A stretch of DNA of 32,000 bases from Thermofilum pendens Hrk 5 (GTDB lineage Archaea > Thermoproteota > Thermoprotei > Thermofilales > Thermofilaceae): the NCBI RefSeq assembly GCF_000015225.1, contig NC_008698.1:360001-392000 (forward strand), written 5' to 3'. The position numbers and the translations under genes were made by a program. The notes under the pieces are model-generated. The model was not told the DNA's origin. It made no database searches and saw only the letters and a program-made list of their open reading frames with translations. Every line of letters begins with the position of its first letter. Position 1 is the stretch's first letter. Below, piece by piece: positions 726 to 26,197 of the stretch.

Positions 726-820
726 GCGGCCGTAGTCTAGCCTGGTAGGATGGCGGCCTCCCAAGCCGCAGAGCCTTAAAGGCGCGGAAAACCCGGGTTC
801 AAATCCCGGCGGCCGCACCA
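726..820 (+). tRNA. tRNA-Gly (anticodon CCC) with an ~18-nt insertion (putative intron) between anticodon arm and T-arm; CCA encoded
   Basis: Cloverleaf read directly. Acceptor GCGGCCG (726-732) pairs with CGGCCGC (810-816). Anticodon arm is GCGGC-CTCCCAA-GCCGC and T-arm is CCGGG-TTCAAAT-CCCGG. Discriminator A is followed by CCA (818-820). There are 23 nt where a 4-5 nt variable loop is expected. Confidence 0.8.
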
Positions 821-7981: not shown

Positions 7982-8566
7982 CTATCTGGGTCTCGCGTAG
8001 TTTTCTACGTAAAACTTTGCAGCAGCGCGGGGGTCTACGCTTTTTTCAAGTATTGACAGCAAATTGCTTGAAGCTATGCATTGCGGCCTCAAGGAGGACG
8101 GTCCCGCAACTCTCCTTATTTCTTCGAGCGTAGTGGTTGCCAGGGGGTAGGCCGTCCTGTTGGAGGCTTCGAGTGATAACCCTGCGAGGTTACCTCTCAG
8201 CACTTCTTCCAGGAAGTACGCGGCTACCTCTTCGGCTACCATGGGGAGAACGACTACTTGGCCCGGTTTCGCGAGTCTCGCAACGAGAACCTTTAACTCT
8301 GTGTACGTTGAAGGAGCCCTCTCCGCGAAAGTTTCCGAGCCGACGGTTTTCCGCGCCAGGAGGCCTATCTCCCCGGGTAGCTCTGCGCCCACGTGAAGGT
8401 GGCGAATAACGACGGGGAACTCTTCCTCGACGCTTAAGAGCAACTCGAGCGCTACCTTCGATTGAAGGTTTGGAAGGGTGACTGCCAGTATCTCGTCTTC
8501 CCTGTTCAACCCAGCGAGCCTAAGGTTCCTCAGGAACCTTTTCCTCAACGTAGCCTTGTCAACCAC
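7982..8566 (-). CDS. hypothetical protein, possibly a degenerate PP-loop (adenine nucleotide alpha-hydrolase-like) fold
   Basis: 194-aa ORF. Its layout resembles TilS/PP-loop ATPases: an N-terminal helix, then EILAVTLPNLQSKVALELL where SGGxDS is expected, and later VVVLPMVAEEVAAYFLEEVLRGN. The SGGxDS signature itself is absent. This is inference only. Confidence 0.4.
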   Translation of the reverse strand: MVDKATLRKRFLRNLRLAGLNREDEILAVTLPNLQSKVALELLLSVEEEFPVVIRHLHVGAELPGEIGLLARKTVGSETFAERAPSTYTELKVLVARLAKPGQVVVLPMVAEEVAAYFLEEVLRGNLAGLSLEASNRTAYPLATTTLEEIRRVAGPSSLRPQCIASSNLLSILEKSVDPRAAAKFYVENYARPR

Positions 8567-8754
8567 GCCTACCGACCTGCTTACCCCGAAAAGCGTTCAC
8601 CTCTGTCCTCCCATGCATACTTCTTAAGGTTTACGGAAAGAGGGGGCCGGGCGCCTTTCCCTGTTGGTTTTACCCTTTTATTCTTGTGCCCCCAGCTCGC
8701 GCGTGACGAAAGGGTAAAGATTCACGTGTGTTGTAGATCTAGCAGGGGGTTGAG

Positions 8755-9135
8755 TTGCCGAAGACTGCGCTGTACGTCCTCAGCGGCGTAAGCGTGGACG
8801 ACCTGCGGAGTAGCATAGCACGCCTTAACGCTACGACCAGGAACTTCTCCCTAGAAAGCGTTTCCGGAGGCGAGTGGGTAACCGCCCGGCTTACTACGGC
8901 TCCACTCCGCGATAACTGCTACTCTATCAGAATACGTTTAAGCAAGAAGAGGGGGTGGCTTTGGGGCGAGGAGTTCGTCGCGTGCATCGAGGAATACGGG
9001 GAAAGCGTCAGGCTCACCGTTCGAAGGGTTAAGGGCGTTGGTCGCGTGGGGTCTGACCTTATCGGCGCCTGGATAATCGAAGACACATCCAGGGAACTCC
9101 CCTGGCTAGAGGTCCGACACGCCGAGCTCTTCTAG
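8755..9135 (+). CDS. hypothetical protein
   Basis: 126-aa ORF starting at TTG, preceded by GGGGGT. No recognisable motif. Coding status rests only on ORF length and the lack of a competing feature. Confidence 0.4.
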   Translation: MPKTALYVLSGVSVDDLRSSIARLNATTRNFSLESVSGGEWVTARLTTAPLRDNCYSIRIRLSKKRGWLWGEEFVACIEEYGESVRLTVRRVKGVGRVGSDLIGAWIIEDTSRELPWLEVRHAELF

Positions 9136-17458: not shown

Positions 17459-18020
17459 CCGCCTTACTCTTCTCTATCATTTCCATGATGAACTCTCTTT
17501 TGCCCAGGTAGGGTTGCCGCATGGTCAGCCTGATCTTCAACTGACCCCTCTGCTCATCGTAGCTTACACCGACAACCCTCCCCCTCACCACGTCGCCCTT
17601 CCTAATCGTCCGGGTACCTTTCTCGTCCTGGATGATGACTACGCCGTTCTCCCTATCGTAGGTTATGTTCCTGGAGGGGTATATCTGCGACTTGTGCACA
17701 AAGCCCTCCACGGGGCCTAGCCGGACCGTCAGCCCGATATTCTCCACCAAGTCAACCTCGCCTTCGACAACCTCGTTGTTTACAGGGCTAAAAACGAGCG
17801 CCGTAAACCTTGCCTCGTGGTAGCTCGCCCCGTCGCCCCACGTCAGAAAACCTTCCTCCGAGACCTCAGCATCGAGTATGGAGATAACGAGCCCGACGCC
17901 TTGTACTACGCGTCCCTCGAAGCTTTCCTTTAGAATTTCCAGTGAAGCCTCTTTCAACGGCTGTCCAAACAGCCTGGGCGGTATCCTTATCACATCGGCA
18001 AACTCTACTAACTTATACAC
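17433..18020 (-). CDS. rpoE: DNA-directed RNA polymerase subunit E' (Rpo7)
   Basis: A GTG at 18020 gives (M)YKLVEFADVIRIPPRLFG..., the canonical Rpo7 N-terminus, followed by a C-terminal S1-like domain. The extra 27 codons up to 18101 in the ORF track do not look like Rpo7. Confidence 0.88.
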   Translation of the reverse strand: MYKLVEFADVIRIPPRLFGQPLKEASLEILKESFEGRVVQGVGLVISILDAEVSEEGFLTWGDGASYHEARFTALVFSPVNNEVVEGEVDLVENIGLTVRLGPVEGFVHKSQIYPSRNITYDRENGVVIIQDEKGTRTIRKGDVVRGRVVGVSYDEQRGQLKIRLTMRQPYLGKREFIMEMIEKSKAGGQGAGKA

Positions 18021-18274
18021 AAGCCAATTCGAAGAACGCGCAGTAAAAAAGATTACGCATCGCGCGGAGGAGGCCGGGACGCCTTTCCCTGGTGGTCTCA
18101 TGCTTTAGCGCCTTGGTCCCCCAGCTTTCTGAGCGCCTCCTCTCTCGCCTTCTTTAGGCGTTCCAGGAGGCGCTCTACGCTCGGGCCTTACTGAATGATC
18201 GAGAGGTATAGCTTCGCGCGCTGGAAGAGCCTGTGTGCACGTGAGGCGCGCGCCGCTGGAGTCTAGGATAGGAT

Positions 18275-18308: not shown

Positions 18309-18635
18309 ATGCCCGGCGGGAAAGCCCCGGGGGGCTAGCCCTCCCCTGTAACCACAAACGGGCTTAGGGTGGGGGGCGTCAACCTCCGGGGGCGCCCGGC
18401 CTTCCCTATGGGTGCCCGGGTCGCCAGATGATGCCCGTGCCCACGGGACGCCTCGTCCGTGCACGGCTCCTCGTAGGAGGAGGCCGAGCACGGTAGAGGC
18501 CGAACCGGGTTAGGCCCGGGAGGGAGCGGCCCTAAGGCCTCCGAGGCGTGTTCGTGGATTCGCGGGCGGATGTAGCGGCCCGGGAGAGCCCATGGGGTGC
18601 GGGCCGGGCCACCCTGGAGGGATGCCGCCGGGCAT
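18309..18635 (+). ncRNA. signal recognition particle RNA (7S RNA)
   Basis: The termini pair (ATGCCCGGCGG at 18309-18319 with CCGCCGGGCAT at 18625-18635). The Alu-domain loop motif CCCCUGUAACC is at 18343-18353. The helix-8-like AGGCCCGGGAGGGAGCGGCC at 18512-18531 resembles the conserved AGGUCCGGAAGGAAGCAGCC of 4.5S/7S RNAs. The region is very GC-rich and has no credible CDS. Confidence 0.85.
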
Positions 18636-18714: not shown

Positions 18715-19028
18715 GGGGGCCGAGTGGTCCGGCGGGCGGCCGCCGGCCTACCCCGGCGACGGGGTAGGCTGAGGAACCCCCTCCCACCGCGGCCCCGCAA
18801 CCGCGTAAGCGGGTCGGCGAGACGCCGAGGACCGGCGAAAGCCTCCACCGTGCATGGGTATGACCCTCCACGGGTGGAGGCGACGACGCGGTGGATGTGC
18901 GTGGAAAGCCGGTCCTGCGGGGGTTAGGGTCAAGCAGGGCCTGTGAGGCGCCGCGGCGAGGTCCGGGTGGACCCCTAGACGGATGCCGCCTAAACAGAAG
19001 AGGGGGTACGACTGGCCACTCGGCTCCC
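18715..19028 (+). ncRNA. rnpB: RNase P RNA (type A-like)
   Basis: P1 forms between GGGGGCCGAGUGG (18715-18727) and CCACUCGGCUCCC (19016-19028). A P4/CR-I-like GAGGAACCCCCUCC is at 18771-18784, and the 3' strand ACAGAAGAGGGGGUAC is at 18994-19009 (compare the conserved ACAGAA...GGCUUA). The region is GC-rich and highly self-complementary. Confidence 0.8.
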
Positions 19029-19073: not shown

Positions 19074-20036
19074 ATGTCCTCGGAGTTAACGGTGCTCGAC
19101 CTATTCGCGGGTGCTGGGGGGTTTAGCAGGGGCTTCGCCGAGGAAGGCTTCAGCATTGTGGGCGCGGTCGAGGTAGACCCTCTCGCCGCTGAAGCCTTTA
19201 GGCTCAACTTTCCGGGAGCGAGGGTCTTCGAGGAGGACGTGAGGGAGGTGCATTCGAGGGACATCCTCCTAGGCCTCGGCTTTAGGCCCAGGGTGATCAT
19301 AGGTGGACCGCCCTGCGAGGCCTACTCGCGCGCGAACCCGAGGCGCGAGCGGGAGCCGCTGGACAGGCTGTACAAGGACCCTGTGGGGAGCCTCGTGCTC
19401 CACTATATACGCATCGTGGGGGACCTCGAGCCGGAGGTCTTCGTGATGGAGAACGTCCCCGGGATACTCGACGAGGGGCTCGGGGAGGTGCTACGGGAGG
19501 AGTTCTCCAGGGTCGGCTACCACGACGTTTACTTCAATGTGCTCGTCGCCGAGCATTACGGCACGCCCTCCCACAGGGTCAGGGTGTTTATTTCAAACAA
19601 GAGGATAAGCCCCCCTAAGACCGGGAAGACTATAACCGTGTGGGACGCGATAGGGGACCTCCCCCCGCCCGACCCCTACTACGAGATACCCAACCACGAG
19701 CCCGTCACGCTGAGCGCCGGGAAGGCGAAGAGGGTGGCTAAGCTCAGGTGGGGGGAGGCGCTCGTACACTACAGGGGTTACGGCGGGCGCGTACTGCGAA
19801 ACCTGGTACGCCTGCACCCGTACAGGGTTGCACCCACGGTGATGGGTTCTTCGAGGTTCGTGCACCCATTCGAGAACCGGTTACTGACTGTTCGCGAACA
19901 GGCTAGGCTTATGGGGTTCCCGGATACGCACGTGTTCGTAGGTAGCAAGGAGGCGCAGTTCAACCAGGTGGGCGAAGCTGTCCCAGTCCCCCTCGCTAGA
20001 GCCATTGCACGCGAAGTCAAAAAGACGCTCTTATAG
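19074..20036 (+). CDS. DNA (cytosine-5)-methyltransferase
   Basis: 320 aa with C5-MTase motifs in canonical order: I LDLFAGAGGFSRGF, IV GGPPCEAYSRAN, VI ENVPGIL, VIII RVRVFISN, IX LTVREQARLMGFPDTHVF and X NQVGEAVPVPLARAIA. Confidence 0.9.
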   Translation: MSSELTVLDLFAGAGGFSRGFAEEGFSIVGAVEVDPLAAEAFRLNFPGARVFEEDVREVHSRDILLGLGFRPRVIIGGPPCEAYSRANPRREREPLDRLYKDPVGSLVLHYIRIVGDLEPEVFVMENVPGILDEGLGEVLREEFSRVGYHDVYFNVLVAEHYGTPSHRVRVFISNKRISPPKTGKTITVWDAIGDLPPPDPYYEIPNHEPVTLSAGKAKRVAKLRWGEALVHYRGYGGRVLRNLVRLHPYRVAPTVMGSSRFVHPFENRLLTVREQARLMGFPDTHVFVGSKEAQFNQVGEAVPVPLARAIAREVKKTLL

Positions 20037-20067: not shown

Positions 20068-20140
20068 CTCCTCGGTTTACAAACATGGAAGAAAGCTGAA
20101 AACGAGGGCCTCCCCGGTTTACAAATTCAGGGAAAAAGAA
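20068..20140 (+). repeat. tandem ~42-bp repeat carrying two GGTTTACAAA motifs (left border of unit A)
   Basis: GGTTTACAAAC is at 20074-20084 and GGTTTACAAAT at 20116-20126. Each is preceded by CCTC and followed by a purine-rich GGRAGAAAG-like tract. Confidence 0.85.
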
Positions 20141-20147
20141 TGAGTTT

Positions 20148-20357
20148 TTACGCGAGCTCTAGCTCTCTCAGCTCCTCGACGCCCTCCTCAAGCTCCCTCG
20201 CCAGCTCTTCGTCCTCTTCGACCTGCGGAGTCGCGCCGTGCACTGAGGCTAGGAACTCCTCTATCGCGTCTAATGCTTCGACGAGGCGCGCCTCGTAGAG
20301 CCCGTCCCCCTTAAGAGTGCTCGCCAGTAGCCTCGACAACGCGCTTATCGTCTGCAC
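20148..20357 (-). CDS. small acidic helical protein of unknown function (cassette unit A)
   Basis: 69-aa ORF with a GTG start, a predicted helical N-half (TISALSRLLASTL ... LYEARLVEALDAIEEFLASV) and a strongly acidic tail (QVEEDEELARELEEGVEELRELELA). It is conserved in unit B, which supports it being a real gene. Confidence 0.6.
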   Translation of the reverse strand: MQTISALSRLLASTLKGDGLYEARLVEALDAIEEFLASVHGATPQVEEDEELARELEEGVEELRELELA

Positions 20358-20397
20358 GATAACCCTCGAGCACGCCCTCGCAGAGCGCCTCTTTCCA

Positions 20398-20407
20398 CTA
20401 TTTAAGG
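20398..20407 (+). promoter_or_regulatory. conserved TATA box (CTATTTAAGG) for the large cassette gene, unit A
   Basis: An identical 10-mer occupies the same position in unit B (24320-24329), about 30-36 nt upstream of the ATG. Confidence 0.55.
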
Positions 20408-20438
20408 GAGGGGTTAATTATGGTTTGGAGAGAAGACA

Positions 20439-21863
20439 ATGGGGTGTGAAGAGAGGCTTGAAGAAGAGGTTAGGGAGGAGACGTGGAGGAGGGCGGCGCT
20501 AAGCCTCTACTCGACCGAGGTCGAGGATAGGAGGAGGTCTAGGGGCGGGAAGAAGGGCAGGGTACACTATCGCGGCCTCTACGACGCAGTGTCTAGGATT
20601 AACTGGGACTTTACGCGCTTCGCGGCGCACGCGCTGAGCGTCGTGCCGGACGAGGCATACTCCAGGTTCGGCAGGCTGTTTGACATCGACGCGAGGAAGT
20701 ACCTCCTGCTGAACGACGACGAGAAGCCGAGGGAGGGAGGCGCAGTTGTGGAGCTACGCGATAGGCTACAGGCAATCGTCGACGCTACCGAAGACGGCCT
20801 CAAAGTTGAGAGACACGGAAAGCACTGGCAAGTATACATACCTGGAGAAAACTGGCACGTCATCGCTTACAAGCCTACACATAACTGGATCATACTCATC
20901 CCGTTGAAAGGCTTCTGGGTTGAGTCAGAGTTTCCCAGGGTTCTAGTGAATACTCCGATCAGCGTTTTGCAGAGCCTGCAGAAAGGGTGGGTCTTAACGG
21001 ATGTGACACCCCCTCATGGGCGCTACAGCTACGTACAATTCAGCACCACTCAACCGTGGCAGTTGCCAGCCACGCTCGCGGCCTTTCCTAGTGACAATAT
21101 CTGCTTGGGCGTTACGGCGGGCGCACTCGGCAGTACCAAGCTAAGCATCGAGTGGAAGGTGCACGTCTATAGCTACGAGGAGGAGCTGGGCTGGGCCTCC
21201 GAACTCATCGGCGAGGTTAAACGTGCAGAGTTCCGCCAGCTTATCGATGCTTGCAGGGTGCTACAGGGAGACCCGGTCGCTCTACACACAGCCTTCCTGG
21301 GGGACGGCTACCTCGCCTTCTTCCTGAGGCTTCGGATGCTCTTCTTCAGTATTGGACACGAGATTTTCTACCTCCCAGCTGAGAGCGCTATAGTCAACGC
21401 TAGACTCGCCGTCGAGCTAGCACCAGAGTACACAAAGTTCGTCTCATTAGTGACGAAGTGTCCAAAGATTAAACACTTCTTGTTCGTCGGCTTCGGATTG
21501 CCGCAAAAGAGAGGTATGAGAGACGGTCAGAGAAAGACCCCGTTCTACGCCGAGATAGCGGGGGCTAGGCTACACCTAGTCTACATTTCTACGAGGAATC
21601 ATGTCTACGCGAGGATCGCGGTCGACGATGCGCCTCAAGGCTGGGTGGAGGAGGCGCGCGCTCAGGGCTGGGACGTCCGGGTGGTTAACATGGGAAGCGA
21701 GGAGTACTACCAGGTTACACATGTCTCTTTGATGGAGCACGCGCGCTACGACGAAGCACTGCGGGAAACACTCCTCGCCTTCGCGAAGGCGAAAGCCGAG
21801 CAGTACCCCAAAGCCTGGGAACTCGTAGAGCGCCTCGAAAAGCTGGGGACAGGGCAGGAATAG
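20439..21863 (+). CDS. 474-aa protein of unknown function (cassette unit A); weak LAGLIDADG-like signature; possibly PaREP2-like
   Basis: Long uninterrupted ORF with a paralogue at 24355-25791 (roughly two-thirds to three-quarters aa identity by eye). Conserved blocks include INWDFTRFAAHAL, DIDARKYLLL, LTDVTPPHG, STTQPWQLPATLA, TAFLGDG(Y/M)LAFFLRLRMLFF and FLFVGFGLPQKRG. No catalytic family could be assigned by eye. Confidence 0.8.
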   Translation: MGCEERLEEEVREETWRRAALSLYSTEVEDRRRSRGGKKGRVHYRGLYDAVSRINWDFTRFAAHALSVVPDEAYSRFGRLFDIDARKYLLLNDDEKPREGGAVVELRDRLQAIVDATEDGLKVERHGKHWQVYIPGENWHVIAYKPTHNWIILIPLKGFWVESEFPRVLVNTPISVLQSLQKGWVLTDVTPPHGRYSYVQFSTTQPWQLPATLAAFPSDNICLGVTAGALGSTKLSIEWKVHVYSYEEELGWASELIGEVKRAEFRQLIDACRVLQGDPVALHTAFLGDGYLAFFLRLRMLFFSIGHEIFYLPAESAIVNARLAVELAPEYTKFVSLVTKCPKIKHFLFVGFGLPQKRGMRDGQRKTPFYAEIAGARLHLVYISTRNHVYARIAVDDAPQGWVEEARAQGWDVRVVNMGSEEYYQVTHVSLMEHARYDEALRETLLAFAKAKAEQYPKAWELVERLEKLGTGQE

Positions 21864-22008
21864 GGTAAACCACCAGGGAAGCGGCGTCCGGCCCCCTTCT
21901 CCCGTTCTGCGTCGAAGGGTGTGCTAGTCCTAGGGTGTAGCGCGCGTGCTGTGCGCCCTTCGCGCGCTAAAGTTTATAGCGCGCGGCGCTACAGAGAGGG
22001 CGGGAGGT

Positions 22009-22533
22009 ATGGCCACGTATACCGTGATCCCTGTGCTCCACAATACGAATAGCTCTCAGAGAGTAGCTGAGGTTGCCCGTATAGCATACGGGCTCGGATA
22101 CAACACGCTCGTTCTCTCCAGGGTTTACGGCCCCGCGGCCCAGGTAGGCATCCCGGAGGCTCAGAAGCTAGCTCTTCGGCATAACTGCAACCTCATAGTC
22201 CTCTCAGACCTTCCCGAGGTCGTCGAGCTTCTCCGCCCCAACGTGATCCTAGTAGCCGTGCCGGGAAAGTACGGCGGGCGGGAGCTAAGCGAGGTTCTAA
22301 AGGAACTAGAAGGAAAGACCAGTGGAGGAGAGGCTTCCCGGATAGCTGTTGTGTTTGGAGGAGCAGAGCCGGGGCTAAGCCAGAAGGAGATGAAAACCGG
22401 CGAACTCGTACACCCGGACGGAGTAGAAGAAGATATAGGCTCAACGGGCGTCGCTGCCGTAACGCTTTACCTCGTTGCCCGCTGGCTTTCCCTTCTTCGC
22501 ACGCGCGGGGCGACAACTAGGGAAGGCGTCTAG
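22009..22533 (+). CDS. uncharacterised alpha/beta protein, possibly a SPOUT (SpoU-like) methyltransferase fold
   Basis: The ATG at 22009 is preceded by GGGAGGT and a TATA-like AAAGTTTATAGC. VIPVLHNTNSSQRVAEVARIAYGLGYNTLVLSRVYGPAAQVGIPEAQKLA and VVFGGAEPGLS resemble small archaeal SpoU-like proteins. The functional call is tentative. Confidence 0.45.
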   Translation: MATYTVIPVLHNTNSSQRVAEVARIAYGLGYNTLVLSRVYGPAAQVGIPEAQKLALRHNCNLIVLSDLPEVVELLRPNVILVAVPGKYGGRELSEVLKELEGKTSGGEASRIAVVFGGAEPGLSQKEMKTGELVHPDGVEEDIGSTGVAAVTLYLVARWLSLLRTRGATTREGV

Positions 22534-22596
22534 GAAGGGCTAACCGGTATTCAGGCAGTTTTTCGCCCGGCGGAACTTAGCGCGCAAGAAGGCAAA

Positions 22597-22788
22597 CTAG
22601 ACAAGCCTGATCCTAGTCACGGCTTTCTTGTTCTGCCAACTGTACCGGCGGATTCTCTTAGACCTCCCGAAACCGCAGTGGGCGCAGTAGCCTTTCCTCA
22701 CGTTAAAGCTGTGGTGCCCGCATCGCCTGCAACGTATGTGGGTAATGTTCCTGCCGCGTTTACCGAAGGATGTGGTTCCCTTGACCAT
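22597..22788 (-). CDS. rpl37e: 50S ribosomal protein L37e
   Basis: [48 protein letters not shown] includes the L37e zinc ribbon. Confidence 0.95.
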
Positions 22789-22799
22789 ACCGGTTCACC

Positions 22800-23021
22800 T
22801 CACGGTGCCGGAGAGACCAGGATGACGTTGTCCCCCCTGACTATTATAGTTCCAAGCTGTCTTGTCCGCGTACCCCTTATTTCCTCTGCATTTTCGAGGA
22901 CGAGGTTCAGGTGGTAATCGTAGCTCTTTAACTGTCCTCGGATCTCCCTCCCGCCTTTGAGCTTCACTAGGACGTTCTTTTCGAGTGACTCTGCGAGCAC
23001 GGAGATCGTTCCCTCCTCCAT
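22800..23021 (-). CDS. Sm-like archaeal protein (SmAP/LSm)
   Basis: Sm1 and Sm2 motifs are present: VLVKLKGGREIRGQLKSYDYHLNLVLENAEE ... IIVRGDNVILVSP. The gene is upstream of L37e, as in the conserved archaeal pair. Confidence 0.95.
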   Translation of the reverse strand: MEEGTISVLAESLEKNVLVKLKGGREIRGQLKSYDYHLNLVLENAEEIRGTRTRQLGTIIVRGDNVILVSPAP

Positions 23022-23139
23022 TAGCTCTCACCAGTGCCTCATACTCTCTGCACCCCTACTTAAAAAGATTTTTCCGCGCGCGAAGAACGCGTAACCCGAG
23101 CGCGCGAGATTTATTAGTAAAGCCGGTGAAGTATGGGTT

Positions 23140-23331
23140 GTGGTTCAAGGAAGAGGAGGCACTTACGACTTGGTAAAGGTAAATTTCAGGGTTAGCATCG
23201 AGGACTATAATAAAATGCTTGAGCTCGTTAAGTCGGGGGAATACTCGTCGGTAAGCGAGCTTGTTAGACATGCCGTTGAACTACTAGTATCGGAGTACAA
23301 GAGCCTCGACGCTATGAAGGGATCTCGCTAG
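23140..23331 (+). CDS. ribbon-helix-helix (CopG/Arc/MetJ-like) DNA-binding protein
   Basis: 63-aa ORF (GTG start). VKVNFRVSIEDYNKMLELVKSGEYSSVSELVRHAVELLVSEY fits the beta-strand, helix, helix pattern of RHH proteins. Confidence 0.6.
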   Translation: MVQGRGGTYDLVKVNFRVSIEDYNKMLELVKSGEYSSVSELVRHAVELLVSEYKSLDAMKGSR

Positions 23332-23513
23332 TCAGAGATTCGCGGGTATGCATCGACGCTGGAAGCTCCCGTAATTGGCGTGTAGCTCGTTGAACCTTTA
23401 GTGGACACGTGGCAACAAGTAGCTAAGAAGAGGCGGGTGTCTGTTCCTCTACTGTGCGGCGCGCGAGAGAGAAAATTTAAATACGAACAAACTTATCGCT
23501 CTGGGTTTGGGCG

Positions 23514-23909
23514 ATGTCTTCGAAGGTATCCTTCAAAGTGGTGATCTCCGACCCTAAGACCGGGAAAGCCGAGCAAGTAGAGGTGAGCGGCGAGCAGGCT
23601 CTCAGACTCATCGGGCTGAAGATAGGCGATATAATCGACGGAGGGCTAGTAGGTAAGCCGGGGGTAAAGCTTCAGATACGCGGAGGCTCTGGGAGGGCCG
23701 GGGAGCCTATGCGCCCAGACATAGAGGGGGCGCGCAAGGGGTACTTCCTTCTCTCAGGACCTCCGGGTTATTGGCCTCGCGAGAAAGGCGAGAGGCGGAG
23801 AAGGTTCGTGAGGGGGAACGTTATCTCCGACGATATAGTTCAGATAAACACTGTGATAGTCTACGACGAGGAAAAAGCCCAGCAGGCTACCCCTCACGCG
23901 CGGGGCTAA
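23514..23909 (+). CDS. rps6e: 30S ribosomal protein S6e
   Basis: FKVVISDPKTGKAEQVEV ... KLQIRGGSGRAGEPMRPDIEGARKGYFLLSGPPGY ... GERRRRFVRGN matches S6e. A TATA-like AAAATTTAAATA lies about 33 nt upstream. Confidence 0.95.
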   Translation: MSSKVSFKVVISDPKTGKAEQVEVSGEQALRLIGLKIGDIIDGGLVGKPGVKLQIRGGSGRAGEPMRPDIEGARKGYFLLSGPPGYWPREKGERRRRFVRGNVISDDIVQINTVIVYDEEKAQQATPHARG

Positions 23910-23995
23910 AGACCATCGGAAAGTGAGGAGTAAGGATACGTAAACTTTTCGTCGAGCTTCTCTGACTTGCTTGTGCGCGTGGAAACTCAGGGAAT

Positions 23996-24064
23996 TCCCT
24001 GGTTTACAAACACGGGAGAAATCTGAGACCGCGGTCCTCCCACGTTTACAAACCAAAGAAAAGG
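23996..24064 (+). repeat. tandem ~42-bp repeat carrying GGTTTACAAAC / CGTTTACAAAC (left border of unit B)
   Basis: The motifs are at 24001-24011 and 24043-24053, with the same 42-nt spacing as in unit A. The perfect palindrome CAGGGAATTCCCTG lies at about 23988-24001, overlapping the first base of the first motif. Confidence 0.85.
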
Positions 24065-24069
24065 AGTTT

Positions 24070-24277
24070 TTACGCCAGCCCTAGCCCCCTGAGCTCCTCG
24101 ATGCCCTCTTCCAGCTCTCTTGCTAGCTCTTCGTCTTCCTCGACTTGCGGGGTCGCGCTTCCCACGGATGCTAGAAACTCCTCTACTGCGTCTAATGCTT
24201 CGACGAGGCGCGCCTCGTAGAGGCGCGCGCCTAAGAGTGCTCGCCAAGAGCCGCGAAAGCGCGCCGATGGTTCGCAC
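24070..24277 (-). pseudogene. frameshifted copy of the small acidic helical gene (cassette unit B)
   Basis: The N-terminus (M)RTIGALSRLLASTL is in the frame of ORF 23987-24277. The homologous C-terminus LYEARLVEALDAVEEFLASVGSATPQVEEDEELARELEEGIEELRGLGLA is in the frame of ORF 24070-24549. The locus is 208 nt versus 210 nt in unit A, with the 2-nt difference at the (GC)4 tract 24223-24230. Confidence 0.65.
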
Positions 24278-24319
24278 GATAATCCTCGAGCACGCCCTCG
24301 CAGGGGCGGCCCCCGTCCA

Positions 24320-24329
24320 CTATTTAAGG
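24320..24329 (+). promoter_or_regulatory. conserved TATA box (CTATTTAAGG) for the large cassette gene, unit B
   Basis: Identical to 20398-20407 and embedded in the conserved block CCACTATTTAAGG. Confidence 0.55.
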
Positions 24330-24354
24330 ACGGGTGATAGGTATGGGTAGAGGC

Positions 24355-25791
24355 ATGACGGGGGGTGAAGAGGGCGAGGAGGTTGTTAGGGAGCTTGTCT
24401 ACGAGAGGGCGGCTCAAAGCTTGTATGCCACCAGAACAGAGGATAAGAGGAGGTCCAGAGGTAAGAAGAAGAGGGGCGAGATACACTACGTGGGCCTCTT
24501 CGACGCGGTGACCGGGATTAACTGGGACTTTACCAGGTTTGCGGCGCACGCGCTGACCGTCGTGCCGGACGAAGTCTACCCGAGGTTTTACCGCTTCATA
24601 GACATCGACGCGAGGAAGTACCTCCTACTGGGAGACGACGAGAAGCCACGCGAAGGAAGCGCGGCGATGGAGCTACGCAATAGGCTACAAGCAATTGTCG
24701 ATGCAACAGAAGACGGGCTTAGAGCTGAGAAGAAGGGTAAAGTCTGGCGCGTGTACGTGCCGCACGAGAACTGGTACGTAACTGTCTCGAGGCCCAGTAC
24801 TCATAGCTGGTCCATACACGTCCCATTGGAGGGCTTCTGGACCGAGGCTAGTTTCCCGGAGGTTCTCGCGAGGACATCGCCAGACGTGCTTAGAAGCCTG
24901 CAGAGAGGGTGGCTTCTCACAGATGTCACTCCGCCACACGGACGCAACAGCGACGTAAATTTCAGTACCACTCAGCCATGGCAGTTGCCGGCAACGCTCG
25001 CCAACTTCCCGGGAGAAGTCAGGCTCGGCGTCACAGCAGGAGTCCTCGGCTCCACGAGGGCGAGCATTAAGTGGAAGGCCTACGTTCACGGTTACGCGGA
25101 GGAGCTGGGTTGGGCTTCCGAACTCATCGGCGAGGCGAAGCGCGCTGAGTACCGCAGGCTGGTCGACGAGTGCAGGGCGCTACGGGGAGACAGCGTAGCT
25201 CTTTTGACCGCCTTTTTGGGAGATGGTATGCTTGCTTTCTTTCTAAGGCTTCGGATGCTCTTCTTCAGGATAGGCAACGAGACTCTCTACCTCCCAGCTA
25301 AGAGCGCCATTGTCAACGTTCGCTTGGCTGTGGAAAGGGCTAGCGAGTACGTACGCTTTGTCTCGCTGGTCACGAAGAACCCGAAGATCCGGCACTTCCT
25401 GTTCGTCGGCTTCGGATTGCCGCAGAAGAGGGGTAAGAAGGGCGGGCAGAGAAACAGCCCATTCTACGCAAACATTGCAGGGGCTAGGCTACTTCTGGCC
25501 TACGTATCCAGTACTAACAACATCTACGCTAGGATCGTGGTTGATGCTGTGCCTCAAGGCTGGTACGAGCACGCGCTGGAGGAAGGCTGGGACGTGAGGA
25601 TAGTTGCTTCGGGTACCTCTTCGGGTGGCAAGGAATACTACCAAGTGACGCAAAGCTCTCTCTTCGAGCACGCCCGCTACGACGCGGCTCTGCGGGAAAC
25701 ACTCCTCGCCTTCGCGAAAGCGAAAGCCGAGCAGTACCCCAAAGCCTGGGAACTCGTAGAGCGCCTCGAAAAGCTGGGGACAGAAGACTAA
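24355..25791 (+). CDS. paralogue of the 474-aa cassette protein (unit B), function unknown
   Basis: Uninterrupted ORF. The ORF track starts it at GTG 24334 (485 aa). The in-frame ATG at 24355 sits about 31 nt from the TATA box, matching the geometry of unit A. The last ~30 aa are identical to unit A. Confidence 0.8.
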   Translation: MTGGEEGEEVVRELVYERAAQSLYATRTEDKRRSRGKKKRGEIHYVGLFDAVTGINWDFTRFAAHALTVVPDEVYPRFYRFIDIDARKYLLLGDDEKPREGSAAMELRNRLQAIVDATEDGLRAEKKGKVWRVYVPHENWYVTVSRPSTHSWSIHVPLEGFWTEASFPEVLARTSPDVLRSLQRGWLLTDVTPPHGRNSDVNFSTTQPWQLPATLANFPGEVRLGVTAGVLGSTRASIKWKAYVHGYAEELGWASELIGEAKRAEYRRLVDECRALRGDSVALLTAFLGDGMLAFFLRLRMLFFRIGNETLYLPAKSAIVNVRLAVERASEYVRFVSLVTKNPKIRHFLFVGFGLPQKRGKKGGQRNSPFYANIAGARLLLAYVSSTNNIYARIVVDAVPQGWYEHALEEGWDVRIVASGTSSGGKEYYQVTQSSLFEHARYDAALRETLLAFAKAKAEQYPKAWELVERLEKLGTED

Positions 25792-25879
25792 AGAGTAAGA
25801 CCAGCAGGGAAAGGCGCCCGGCCCCCTTCTCCCACAAACATGCGTGAAGCTTAAATGCTTGTAAAACGTGGATTGCATT

Positions 25880-26197
25880 ATGTCGAGTCCCAACGACGAG
25901 TCTGAAGCGCTGGAGTTTCCCCTACCAGACGGGCAGACAACCCTACTCTGCGTTATACAGCAACTTCTAGGCTTCGATAGGGCCAGAGTATTCTGTAGCG
26001 ATGGAAAAGTTAGGCTCTGCAGAATACCCGGGAAGTTTAAGAAGAGGATGTGGATGAAAGTTGGCGACGTGGTTTTGGTTGCTCCTTGGGATTTCCAGCC
26101 CGAGAGAGGAGACATTATCTATAGGTACACGTCCAACGAGCTACAAAAGCTGGAGAAGAAAGGGCTTCTCAAGGAGCTCAAGGAGCTACTAGGGTAG
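25880..26197 (+). CDS. eif1a: translation initiation factor 1A (aIF1A)
   Basis: S1-like OB core: RARVFCSDGKVRLCRIPGKFKKRMWMKVGDVVLVAPWDFQPERGDIIYRY. The ATG at 25880 lies about 30 nt from a TATA-like GCTTAAATGC. The ORF track's GTG at 25868 is an alternative start. Confidence 0.9.
   Translation: MSSPNDESEALEFPLPDGQTTLLCVIQQLLGFDRARVFCSDGKVRLCRIPGKFKKRMWMKVGDVVLVAPWDFQPERGDIIYRYTSNELQKLEKKGLLKELKELLG

What the first reader, a model, noticed from the sequence alone, without database searches (positions are those of the whole stretch)
20068..25833. Two diverged direct copies of a ~1.83-kb divergent two-gene cassette of unknown function
Seen in sequence:
- Units 20074-21903 and 24001-25833 share the same architecture.
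- At the left border each has a tandem GGTTTACAAA motif.
- Next comes a 69-codon acidic helical ORF on the minus strand.
- An ~80-bp divergent control region follows, with the conserved blocks CGATAAYCCTCGAGCACGCCCTCGCAG and CCACTATTTAAGG.
- Then comes a 474/485-codon ORF on the plus strand.
- The right border is conserved (CCGGCCCCCTTCTCCC).

Neither ORF matches any family I can name with confidence. The rest of the window is core housekeeping DNA, so this is the clear accessory element and the best candidate for an undescribed system. The architecture is a small acidic partner plus a large protein, present in more than one copy, with one partner decayed and patchy identity between copies. 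That pattern suggests a selfish or mobile module, or a proliferating two-component system, rather than an ordinary paralogue pair.
Basis: partly seen in the sequence, partly recalled or inferred. Interest (0 to 1): 0.8.

Follow-up and report, generated by a model that had tools for sequence, protein, structure and literature searches.

The report
Multi-copy LAGLIDADG-like nuclease gene cassette
The two repeats are old, diverged copies of a gene family found about 24 times in the Thermofilum pendens genome. The large protein has the fold of a LAGLIDADG homing endonuclease, and in this subfamily it is paired with a tiny, very acidic partner protein. It looks like a selfish nuclease-gene family, but there is no evidence that it is an active transposon.

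Summary
**Observation: confirmed.**
- Units 20069-21904 and 23996-25833 align at 75% nucleotide identity over about 1.86 kb.
- They share the same architecture. The small ORF of unit 2 is broken by a 2-nt deletion.

**What it is.**
- The window is Thermofilum pendens.
- The large ORF belongs to a family with 14 paralogues of this type (62-81% identical to one another) and about 10 more distant paralogues in the same genome. At least 497 further relatives occur in metagenome contigs.
- No curated family (Pfam, NCBIfam, PHROGs, PADLOC) reaches threshold.
- An AlphaFold model (pLDDT 87.6) hits LAGLIDADG/DOD homing endonucleases in two structure libraries.
- Two helices about 101 residues apart end in family-invariant Asp (..GWVLTD188, ..FLGD289G).
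- One distant paralogue is labelled 'PaREP2b' in UniProt.

**Evolutionary signals.**
- Both ORFs are under purifying selection (omega about 0.2 for the large ORF, about 0.1 for the small one) with dS about 1. These are ancient, maintained copies.
- There are no terminal inverted repeats, target-site duplications or near-identical copies.

**New finding.** A ~45-nt motif directly after the stop codon occurs four times in the window:
- twice at the unit ends;
- twice on short 3' gene remnants (8634-8697 and 18061-18184). The second remnant derives from the distant subfamily.
- Each copy lies just upstream of the promoter of a co-oriented housekeeping gene.

**Verdict.** A LAGLIDADG-like, probably selfish nuclease-gene family with an acidic partner. 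The mechanism of spread is unproven.

The parts
20069..20147 (.). Left border of unit 1. It holds two GGTTTACAAA copies (20074-20083, 20116-20125) 42 bp apart. On the minus strand it is the T-rich 3' flank of the small ORF.
   Evidence: (D9)
20148..20357 (-). Small acidic ORF: 69 aa, GTG start, pI 4.1, net charge -13. Annotated in strain Hrk5 as ABL77826.1.
   Evidence: dN/dS about 0.12 against unit 2 over 53 codons.
20358..20438 (.). Divergent control region. The conserved 27-nt block at 20357-20383 overlaps the GTG start and the 5' leader of the small ORF. A palindromic TATA-like element CCACTATTTAAGG lies at 20395-20407.
   Evidence: The promoter role is inferred from the archaeal TATA consensus, not tested.
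20439..21863 (+). Large ORF 1: 474 aa, identical to ABL77827.1 / WP_011752092.1. It has an N-terminal helical and beta region, then two LAGLIDADG-like cores (helix 174-185 ending in D188; helix 279-289 ending in D289-G290), then a C-terminal alpha/beta and helical tail.
21860..21904 (+). Post-stop motif, copy 1 (TAGGGTAAACCACCAGGGAAGCGGCGTCCGGCCCCCTTCTCCC). It ends about 65 nt upstream of the TATA-like AAAGTTTATAG of the DUF2122/SPOUT gene (ATG at 22009).
23996..24069 (.). Left border of unit 2 (GGTTTACAAA at 24001, CGTTTACAAA at 24043).
24070..24277 (-). Pseudogene of the small acidic ORF. The GTG start at 24277 and the first ~15 codons are conserved. A 2-nt deletion then shifts the frame. 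The C-terminal 53 codons are still recognisable in the other frame (24070-24231).
24278..24333 (.). Divergent control region of unit 2 (27-nt block at 24277-24303; CCACTATTTAAGG at 24317-24329).
24334..25791 (+). Large ORF 2: 485 aa from GTG 24334. The database protein P0006 starts at ATG 24343, and the start homologous to unit 1 is probably ATG 24355. It is 71% identical to ORF 1.
25789..25833 (+). Post-stop motif, copy 2. It ends about 17 nt upstream of the TATA-like CTTAAATG of the aIF-1A gene (ATG at 25880).
8634..8697 (-). 3' remnant of a family member. Only the last codons (..ELGAQE*) and the post-stop motif remain. It lies about 70 nt upstream of ORF 7982-8566(-).
   Evidence: (87.7% over 57 nt, E = 2e-13)
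18061..18184 (-). 3' remnant of a subfamily-B member. The last 27 codons (GPSVERLLERLKKAREEALRKLGDQGAKA*) are 93% identical to the C-terminus of P0026. The same post-stop motif follows. It ends about 11 nt upstream of the TATA-like TTTTTTA of the Rpo7/RpoE' gene (GTG at 18020).
   Evidence: (E = 1e-8)

Best explanation
**What it is.** Each unit is one copy of a lineage-specific, multi-copy family of free-standing genes. These genes encode a LAGLIDADG-type (homing-endonuclease-like) DNA-binding or DNA-cleaving protein, distantly similar to the PaREP2b repeat proteins of Thermoproteales.

**How it got there (inferred).**
- The family spread long ago into intergenic spacers immediately upstream of the promoters of co-oriented housekeeping genes.
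- Copies have since diverged under purifying selection, with occasional gene conversion and decay. The decay is visible as one frameshifted small ORF and two 3' remnants.

**Proposed mechanism (inferred).**
- The two invariant Asp residues at the ends of the two LAGLIDADG-like helices form a metal-dependent nuclease site.
- The nuclease cuts a specific DNA site, and recombinational repair copies the gene.
- The ~45-nt post-stop motif is conserved even between subfamilies whose proteins are only about 25% identical. It is therefore the cis element the family depends on, either as a recognition or recombination site or as a 3'-end or insulator signal.
- In this T. pendens subfamily a divergently transcribed 69-aa, strongly acidic helical protein is a partner. 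It most plausibly moderates the nuclease as a DNA-mimic or immunity-like inhibitor, or as a regulator.

**What is shown and what is inferred.**
- Shown: copy number, fold class, selection, remnants and the shared motif.
- Inferred: nuclease activity, homing, and the roles of the motif and the small protein.
For: **Family size.**
- 13 hits, all T. pendens, at 62-81% identity.
- An exhaustive HMM search finds only this cluster plus distant relatives.
- Subfamily B has 8 members, one of them named PaREP2b.
- All paralogues are distinct.
- At least 497 relatives occur in metagenome contigs.

**Fold.**
- The AlphaFold2 model has pLDDT 87.6 and pTM 0.71.
- About 38 of the top 50 Foldseek hits in the PDB are LAGLIDADG enzymes: E-DreI, I-OnuI, I-WcaI (probability 0.95), I-Tsp061I, I-SceI and WhiA.
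- The top hit in the viral structure library BFVD is an I-SceI-type endonuclease (E = 1.6e-3, probability 1.00), followed by DOD and intein endonuclease hits.
- Family-wide invariant residues are G183, W184, D188, T203, Q208, W239, D289, G290 and K343.
- hhalign places the LGDG motif on motif 1 of I-DmoI.
- Sub-threshold Pfam LAGLIDADG_3 hits fall on the C-terminal alpha-beta-beta-alpha segment in 3 of 37 relatives.

**Selection.**
- Large ORF: dN 0.21, dS 1.02.
- Small ORF: dN 0.089, dS 0.77.

**Dynamics.**
- Two 3' remnants are present, one of them of subfamily-B type and carrying the same motif.
- The last 100 nt of the two ORFs match at 96 of 100 positions, against a gene-wide pS of 0.56.

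**Position.** All four motifs abut the promoters of co-oriented genes.
Against: - No sequence-profile match to any LAGLIDADG family reaches significance.
- Foldseek E-values are weak (0.0016-0.5), and I could not inspect the model coordinates.
- The first LAGLIDADG-like motif is degenerate: ..LTD188-V instead of D/E-G. The protein could therefore be catalytically inactive, like WhiA.
- No empty-site comparison was possible, so homing or any other mobility is unshown.
- Copies are old (81% identity or less), which fits a maintained paralogous host family equally well.
- The intact large ORF of unit 2 sits next to a dead small ORF, so a strict cis partnership is not required.
- The small ORF is absent from the metagenomic relatives.
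Confidence: 0.5

Rival explanations
1. A domesticated paralogous host family. The large proteins would be LAGLIDADG-fold, sequence-specific DNA-binding regulators (WhiA-like, no longer nucleases). Each would sit upstream of, and act on, a neighbouring housekeeping promoter. The post-stop motif would be their shared operator or insulator, and the small acidic protein a co-regulator.
For: - Selection has been purifying for a long time (omega about 0.2, dS about 1).
- There are no recent copies.
- The position just upstream of co-oriented promoters is consistent across all four motifs.
- The first motif is degenerate.
- WhiA is among the fold hits.
Against: - Two acidic residues, plus Q and K, are invariant across very divergent members. 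This is the pattern of an active LAGLIDADG site.
- The distribution is species-specific, and remnants and pseudogenes point to turnover rather than a fixed regulon.
- Metagenomic contigs carrying relatives are often only 1-2 kb long, as expected for repeats that break assemblies.
Confidence: 0.22
2. A transposon or insertion sequence, as was suggested for PaREP2b in the Pyrobaculum oguniense genome paper. The large protein would be the transposase, and the conserved borders its ends.
For: - The element is multi-copy with defined conserved borders.
- The literature calls PaREP2b 'putative transposons' (PMC3558965).
- 3'-end remnants are present.
Against: - The ends are not inverted repeats and no target-site duplication is present (inspection of the borders).
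- No transposase, integrase or HUH family matches in Pfam or NCBIfam.
- The fold hits are homing endonucleases, not transposases.
- No two copies exceed 81% amino-acid identity, and dS is about 1.
Confidence: 0.08
3. A toxin-antitoxin-like or defence module. The large nuclease would be the toxin or effector, and the small acidic protein its cognate antitoxin or immunity protein. The module would have proliferated as an addiction cassette.
For: - The architecture is a small, strongly acidic helical protein next to a nuclease-fold protein.
- Both are under purifying selection.
- Other paREP families are toxin-antitoxin-related (HEPN, HTH antitoxin).
Against: - The genes are divergent, not co-transcribed.
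- PADLOC and Pfam give no hit.
- Unit 2 keeps an intact large ORF beside a frameshifted small ORF.
- Subfamily relatives in metagenomes lack the small ORF.
Confidence: 0.12
4. An ordinary local segmental duplication of a two-gene locus, with no special biology.
For: The two units lie only 3.9 kb apart in the same orientation.
Against: - 14 + 8 + 2 paralogues are scattered across the genome. Locus tags Tpen_0468, 0646, 0804 and 0892, and accessions ABL77827 to ABL77971, show this spread.
- Remnants lie at two further sites in the window.
- Each unit sits in a different intergenic spacer.
Confidence: 0.03

Closest known systems
LAGLIDADG (DOD) homing endonucleases, e.g. I-DmoI, I-SceI, I-OnuI, I-Tsp061I
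   Same: - The predicted fold class matches.
- Two motif helices lie about 100 residues apart, each ending in a conserved acidic residue (FLGD-G resembles LIIGDG of I-DmoI).
- Invariant Q and K residues are present.
- The genomic behaviour looks selfish: lineage-specific, multi-copy, with decaying copies.
   Different: - The protein is about 470 aa rather than about 200-300 aa. It has a ~165-aa N-terminal helical and beta extension and a C-terminal tail.
- It is not located in an intron or intein.
- There are about 24 diverged intergenic copies per genome, not one copy per target.
- Motif 1 is degenerate.
- No significant sequence-profile match was obtained.
- It has an acidic divergent partner gene and a conserved post-stop motif.
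PaREP2b repeat family of Pyrobaculum/Thermoproteales (Pfam PF07775)
   Same: - Both are multi-copy families of unknown function in Thermoproteales genomes.
- A T. pendens subfamily-B paralogue (P0024, A1RXP1) is named PaREP2b in UniProt.
- Weak local Pfam matches occur in 2 of 37 relatives.
   Different: - No member reaches the Pfam gathering score. The best is 17.6 bits against a cut-off of 20.4, and it matches only profile positions 115-169 of 512.
- The window proteins give no hit at all.
- No PaREP2a-like partner was found.
Free-standing homing endonuclease genes of phages (e.g. T4 seg/mob genes)
   Same: Both are free-standing nuclease genes inserted in intergenic spacers between essential genes and co-oriented with their neighbours.
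   Different: - The phage genes belong to other nuclease families (GIY-YIG, HNH).
- They are single-copy per site.
- They spread between co-infecting genomes and are not present as dozens of paralogues within one chromosome.
Nuclease-immunity pairs (e.g. colicin DNase-Im) and DNA-mimic inhibitors
   Same: A small, helical, strongly acidic protein is encoded beside a nuclease-fold protein.
   Different: - The genes are divergent rather than in an operon.
- No homology was detected.
- The interaction is untested.
- The partner is dispensable in unit 2.

Membership tests
LAGLIDADG homing endonucleases | Two alpha-beta-beta-alpha-beta-beta-alpha core domains (or a homodimer of one) | tested here: met
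   - AlphaFold2 model with pLDDT 87.6.
- LAGLIDADG enzymes dominate the Foldseek hits in the PDB (best probability 0.95) and in BFVD (top hit E = 1.6e-3, probability 1.00).
- The order of secondary-structure elements fits two cores.
- Caveat: E-values are weak and I did not inspect the coordinates.
LAGLIDADG homing endonucleases | LAGLIDADG motif helices ending in a catalytic Asp/Glu followed by Gly | tested here: inconclusive
   - Motif 2, AFLGD289-G290, is canonical and invariant.
- Motif 1 is GWVLTD188-V in T. pendens and GWRASDE-G in the metagenomic relatives.
- D188 is invariant, but the register is uncertain.
LAGLIDADG homing endonucleases | Significant match to the Pfam LAGLIDADG_1/2/3 profiles or to solved LAGLIDADG sequences | tested here: not met
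   - The window proteins give no hit.
- LAGLIDADG_3 matches only below threshold (13-15 bits against a cut-off of 22.5) in 3 of 37 relatives.
- PDB profile searches find nothing.
- hhalign against I-DmoI gives E = 0.06-0.23.
LAGLIDADG homing endonucleases | Site-specific double-strand cleavage and homing into an empty allele | not testable with these tools
   - This needs biochemistry and empty-site alleles.
- The T. pendens genome and other Thermofilum genomes could not be retrieved.
PaREP2b (Pfam PF07775) | Score at or above the Pfam gathering threshold | tested here: not met
   - The window proteins and subfamily B give no hit even at E <= 10.
- The best relative scores 17.6 bits against a cut-off of 20.4.
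PaREP2b (Pfam PF07775) | Repeated, multi-copy family in a Thermoproteales genome | tested here: met
   - About 24 paralogues occur in T. pendens.
- UniProt names P0024 as PaREP2b.
Insertion sequence / transposon | Terminal inverted repeats and target-site duplications | tested here: not met
   - The left end (..GGTTTACAAAC..) and the right end (..CCGGCCCCCTTCTCCC) are unrelated.
- The flanks show no duplication.
Insertion sequence / transposon | Recognisable transposase and near-identical copies | tested here: not met
   - No transposase family matches.
- The maximum pairwise identity is 81%, and dS is about 1.
Type II toxin-antitoxin module | Co-transcribed adjacent toxin and antitoxin genes from known families | tested here: not met
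   - The orientation is divergent.
- Pfam and PADLOC give no hit.
- In unit 2 the small ORF is a pseudogene while the large ORF is intact.

The most novel reading that the evidence does not exclude
This could be a previously unrecognised kind of archaeal selfish element. It would be a free-standing LAGLIDADG nuclease gene that multiplies within one chromosome. Multiplication would work by targeting or recombining at a conserved ~45-nt sequence that it carries directly after its stop codon. Copies would land just upstream of housekeeping promoters and leave 3' 'footprints' when they decay. A co-evolved acidic DNA-mimic protein would keep the element in check. If true, this would also give the long-unexplained PaREP2b-type repeats of Thermoproteales a mechanism.
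Probability: 0.15. Interest if true: 0.75.

Novelty: new variant of a known kind. Interest (0 to 1): 0.5.

Why it matters
- PaREP2-type repeats have been annotated in Thermoproteales genomes without a known function. In the literature I could search, they are described only as 'putative transposons'.
- A LAGLIDADG-like fold with invariant acidic residues gives a concrete, testable biochemical hypothesis: site-specific DNA binding or cleavage.
- The ~45-nt post-stop motif is shared by deeply diverged subfamilies and retained in remnants. It is a candidate cis site to test.
- If the proteins are active, about 24 diverged thermostable LAGLIDADG scaffolds in one genome would also be a natural library of specificities.
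- If they are inactive, this would be a large expansion of WhiA-like regulators in an archaeon.

Tried and rejected
**Sequence searches that found nothing.**
- Pfam, NCBIfam, PHROGs and PADLOC on both ORFs gave nothing.
- phmmer and hmmsearch against PDB sequences gave only noise: jack-bean mannosidase, designed PPR proteins and helical bundles.
- The phage, plasmid and viral-contig collections gave no relative.

**Attempts to retrieve T. pendens DNA.**
- The genome contigs protein scan found no T. pendens locus.
- The DNA-motif scan of genome contigs returned only chance single matches in unrelated bacteria. It was a wasted scan.
- The look-up of encoding contigs had no record for P0002, P0004 or P0014. 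I therefore could not obtain the other T. pendens copies or any empty sites.

**Structure.**
- The first AlphaFold2 run, with only the 14 close paralogues, was useless (pLDDT 45.5).

**The post-stop motif as an RNA.**
- As a structured RNA: folding z-scores were -0.2 to +1.4 and there was no covariation. Rfam gave nothing there. Rejected.
- As a C/D-box sRNA: by inspection, neither strand has C or D boxes.

**Other.**
- The small ORF has no homologue in the window beyond the two units, and none in 82 metagenome loci.
- The genome papers for P. aerophilum and T. pendens are not held in the library.

Full report
**Observation**

The two units are real.
- blastn aligns 20074-21903 with 24001-25833 at 74.7% identity over 1860 columns.
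- The repeat finder and MAFFT give the same picture. Similarity starts at 20069/23996 (TCCyyGGTTTACAAAC) and stops at 21903/25833 (..CCGGCCCCCTTCTCCC).
- GGTTTACAAA, allowing one mismatch, occurs only at the four predicted places.

Both units have the same layout:
- a minus-strand small ORF (20148-20357, 69 aa);
- a spacer of about 80 bp holding a nearly invariant 27-nt block and the palindromic TATA-like CCACTATTTAAGG;
- a plus-strand ORF of 474 or 485 codons.

In unit 2 a 2-nt deletion after about codon 16 destroys the small ORF. Its C-terminal 53 codons remain readable in the other frame.

**Organism and copy number**

- The first large protein is 100% identical to ABL77827.1 / WP_011752092.1 of Thermofilum pendens Hrk5. 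The small one is ABL77826.1.
- The word-indexed search returned 13 proteins, all from T. pendens, at 62-81% identity.
- An exhaustive HMM search of 1.84 billion cluster representatives found this cluster plus only nine weaker hits.
- Those weaker hits include a second T. pendens subfamily ('B': P0014 and P0024-P0030, about 25% identical to the window type, E = 1e-15), and also P0015 and P0021.
- All-against-all BLASTP shows that all of these are distinct paralogues. None is more than 81% identical to another.
- The genome therefore holds roughly 24 members, with none in other named organisms.
- A pattern scan of JGI metagenome contigs confirmed at least 497 more distant relatives. tblastn of the window protein reaches them directly, with E down to 5e-14.
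- Many of these sit on 1-2-kb contigs, as repeats that break assemblies do.

**The large protein**

- No curated family reaches threshold.
- With only the close paralogues, AlphaFold2 failed (pLDDT 45.5).
- With a 28-sequence alignment spanning the subfamilies, it gave pLDDT 87.6 and pTM 0.71.
- Foldseek against the PDB returned LAGLIDADG enzymes for about 38 of the top 50 places: E-DreI, I-OnuI variants, I-WcaI (probability 0.95, TM 0.41 on the target), I-SmaMI, I-Tsp061I, I-SceI and WhiA.
- Foldseek against the viral structure library BFVD put a phage I-SceI-type endonuclease first (E = 1.6e-3, probability 1.00). DOD endonucleases and intein-bearing proteins followed.
- The E-values are weak, but two independent libraries agree.

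The sequence fits this assignment.
- Helix 174-185 ends in ..LQKGWVLTD188. Helix 279-289 ends in ..AFLGD289G290. They lie 101 residues apart, and each is followed by beta hairpins and helices.
- Across 28 very divergent members the invariant residues are L110, G127, G183, W184, D188, T203, Q208, W239, D289, G290 and K343.
- The metagenomic group conserves GWRASDE..TTQ..WQ and LGDG.
- Two acidic residues plus a Gln and a Lys is the residue pattern of I-CreI-type active sites. This comparison rests on my own knowledge and no superposition was done.
- hhalign against the PDB-verified I-DmoI sequence aligns LGDG with motif 1 of I-DmoI, but without significance.
- Sub-threshold Pfam LAGLIDADG_3 hits fall on the C-terminal helix-hairpin-helix segment of three relatives. 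Sub-threshold PaRep2b hits fall on the same segment of two others.

I conclude that the protein has a LAGLIDADG-like double core with a ~165-aa N-terminal extension and a C-terminal tail. Catalytic activity is inferred, not shown. Motif 1 is degenerate in T. pendens.

**Relation to PaREP2b**

- UniProt names the subfamily-B paralogue P0024 'PaREP2b'.
- The only mechanistic remark I found in the library is that paREP elements include 'putative transposons (PaREP2b, for example)' in the Pyrobaculum oguniense genome paper (PMC3558965).
- Other paREP families have been assigned to HEPN and HTH toxin-antitoxin components (PMC3632139 and PMC2701414).
- No member here reaches the Pfam PaRep2b threshold. 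I therefore treat this as a related family, not a member.

**Age and selection**

- Between the two units the large ORF has dN = 0.21 and dS = 1.02 (omega about 0.2).
- The shared 53 codons of the small ORF have dN = 0.089 and dS = 0.77 (omega about 0.12).
- Both are therefore real coding genes that were maintained for a long time. The frameshift in unit 2 must be recent.
- The last 100 nt of the two large ORFs are identical at 96 of 100 positions, against a gene-wide synonymous difference of 0.56. This indicates local gene conversion or a nucleotide-level constraint.
- There are no inverted terminal repeats, no target-site duplications and no recent copies. An active insertion sequence is unlikely.

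**The post-stop motif and the remnants**

- A ~45-nt sequence directly after the stop codon (TAAAG.GTAAGACCA.CAGGGAAAGGCGyCCGGCCCCCTyyTCC) occurs exactly four times in the window (nhmmer).
- Two copies are at the two unit ends. Two are inverted, at 8634-8678 and 18064-18107.
- Upstream of the copy at 18064 the minus strand still encodes GPSVERLLERLKKAREEALRKLGDQGAKA*. This is 93% identical to the C-terminus of subfamily-B protein P0026 (E = 1e-8).
- The copy at 8634 keeps only ..ELGAQE*.
- Both are therefore 3' remnants of lost family members.
- The motif is shared by subfamilies whose proteins are only about 25% identical. It is the most conserved feature of the family in this genome.
- It shows no RNA-structure signal and no Rfam match.
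- All four copies lie about 6-70 nt upstream of a TATA-like element of a co-oriented host gene: DUF2122/SPOUT, aIF-1A, ORF 7982-8566 and Rpo7. The promoter assignments are by inspection only.
- I cannot decide whether the motif is a recognition or recombination site, a 3'-end signal, or is merely retained because deletions cannot extend into the neighbouring promoter.

**The small protein**

- It has 69 aa, pI 4.1 and net charge -13. By composition and by inspection of the sequence it looks helical, but no structure was predicted for it. It has no homologue in any library.
- It is absent from the 82 metagenome loci.
- The over-called N-terminus of Tpen_0892 (P0002) reads antisense through a homologous region, with 'IASNASTRRAS' identical to the window's plus frame. 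At least a third copy therefore carries it.
- Its divergent arrangement around one palindromic TATA-like element, together with its charge, suggests an inhibitor (DNA mimic or immunity-like) or a co-regulator of the large protein. This is inference only.
- The intact large ORF beside the dead small ORF in unit 2 argues against a strict cognate toxin-antitoxin dependence.

**Verdict**

This is an accessory, species-specific, multi-copy family with turnover, but the copies are ancient and selected, and the large protein is not orphan in fold.
- The best reading (about 0.5) is a free-standing LAGLIDADG-like nuclease-gene family with an acidic partner.
- The main rival (about 0.2) is a domesticated family of LAGLIDADG-fold regulators.
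- The key limitations are that T. pendens DNA outside the window and related Thermofilum genomes could not be retrieved, and that the model coordinates could not be inspected.

Noticed in passing
L168:5221-5784 (+), also conserved upstream in L188, L191 and L201: In one metagenomic subgroup, the ~680 bp upstream of the LAGLIDADG-like gene is conserved between copies. It encodes a 187-aa ORF with a GIY-YIG-like N-terminus (Pfam GIY-YIG, E = 4.8e-4, 20.8 bits against a cut-off of 22.6). This is a second nuclease type next to the family gene.
   Followed up: partly
L145:5927-5958 and L162:5980-6011 (same 170-kb contig): Two family copies lie 40 kb apart on one metagenome contig. They share only the gene (69% identity) and a 32-nt block at 97% identity about 50 bp upstream of the start. 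This is a conserved upstream cis element, analogous to the 27-nt block in T. pendens. The copy in L145 sits next to a ribosomal-protein operon.
   Followed up: partly
L154:4194-5117: A second, partial and diverged copy of the family gene, including a 76-79-nt 3' end, lies in tandem about 900 bp upstream of the full gene.
   Followed up: no
window 20275-20300 and 24197-24222: A 26-nt stretch inside the small ORF (GCTTCGACGAGGCGCGCCTCGTAGAG, containing the palindrome GAGGCGCGCCTC) is 100% identical in both units, and is partly repeated at 24212-24237. It may be a gene-conversion tract or a binding site.
   Followed up: no
window 19074-20036 (+): A complete C-5 cytosine DNA methyltransferase gene (Pfam DNA_methylase, E = 6e-51) lies directly upstream of unit 1. 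No obvious restriction partner is present, and unit 2 has no such neighbour.
   Followed up: no
window 18314-18630 and 18722-19021 (+): The SRP RNA and RNase P RNA genes are adjacent, only about 90 nt apart, between the subfamily-B remnant and the methyltransferase gene.
   Followed up: no
window 23140-23331 (+): A 63-aa ORF lies between the two units, upstream of S6e. It has weak ribbon-helix-helix / ParD-like matches (E = 0.02-0.06). Its relation to the cassette is unknown.
   Followed up: no
window 726-820 (+): ARAGORN reports tRNA-Gly(CCC) spanning 95 nt, which is longer than a standard tRNA. It probably contains an intron.
   Followed up: no
window 7982-8566 (-) and 8755-9135 (+): The two ORFs flanking the remnant at 8634-8697 (194 and 126 aa) have no Pfam match.
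   Followed up: partly
metagenome relatives P0016, P0018, P0019, P0020 (alignment A7): The metagenomic subgroup ends in an invariant C-terminal peptide, ..LAESPP(L)P, which is absent from the T. pendens proteins. Members of the P0019 cluster lack about 90 residues of the C-terminal alpha/beta region.
   Followed up: no
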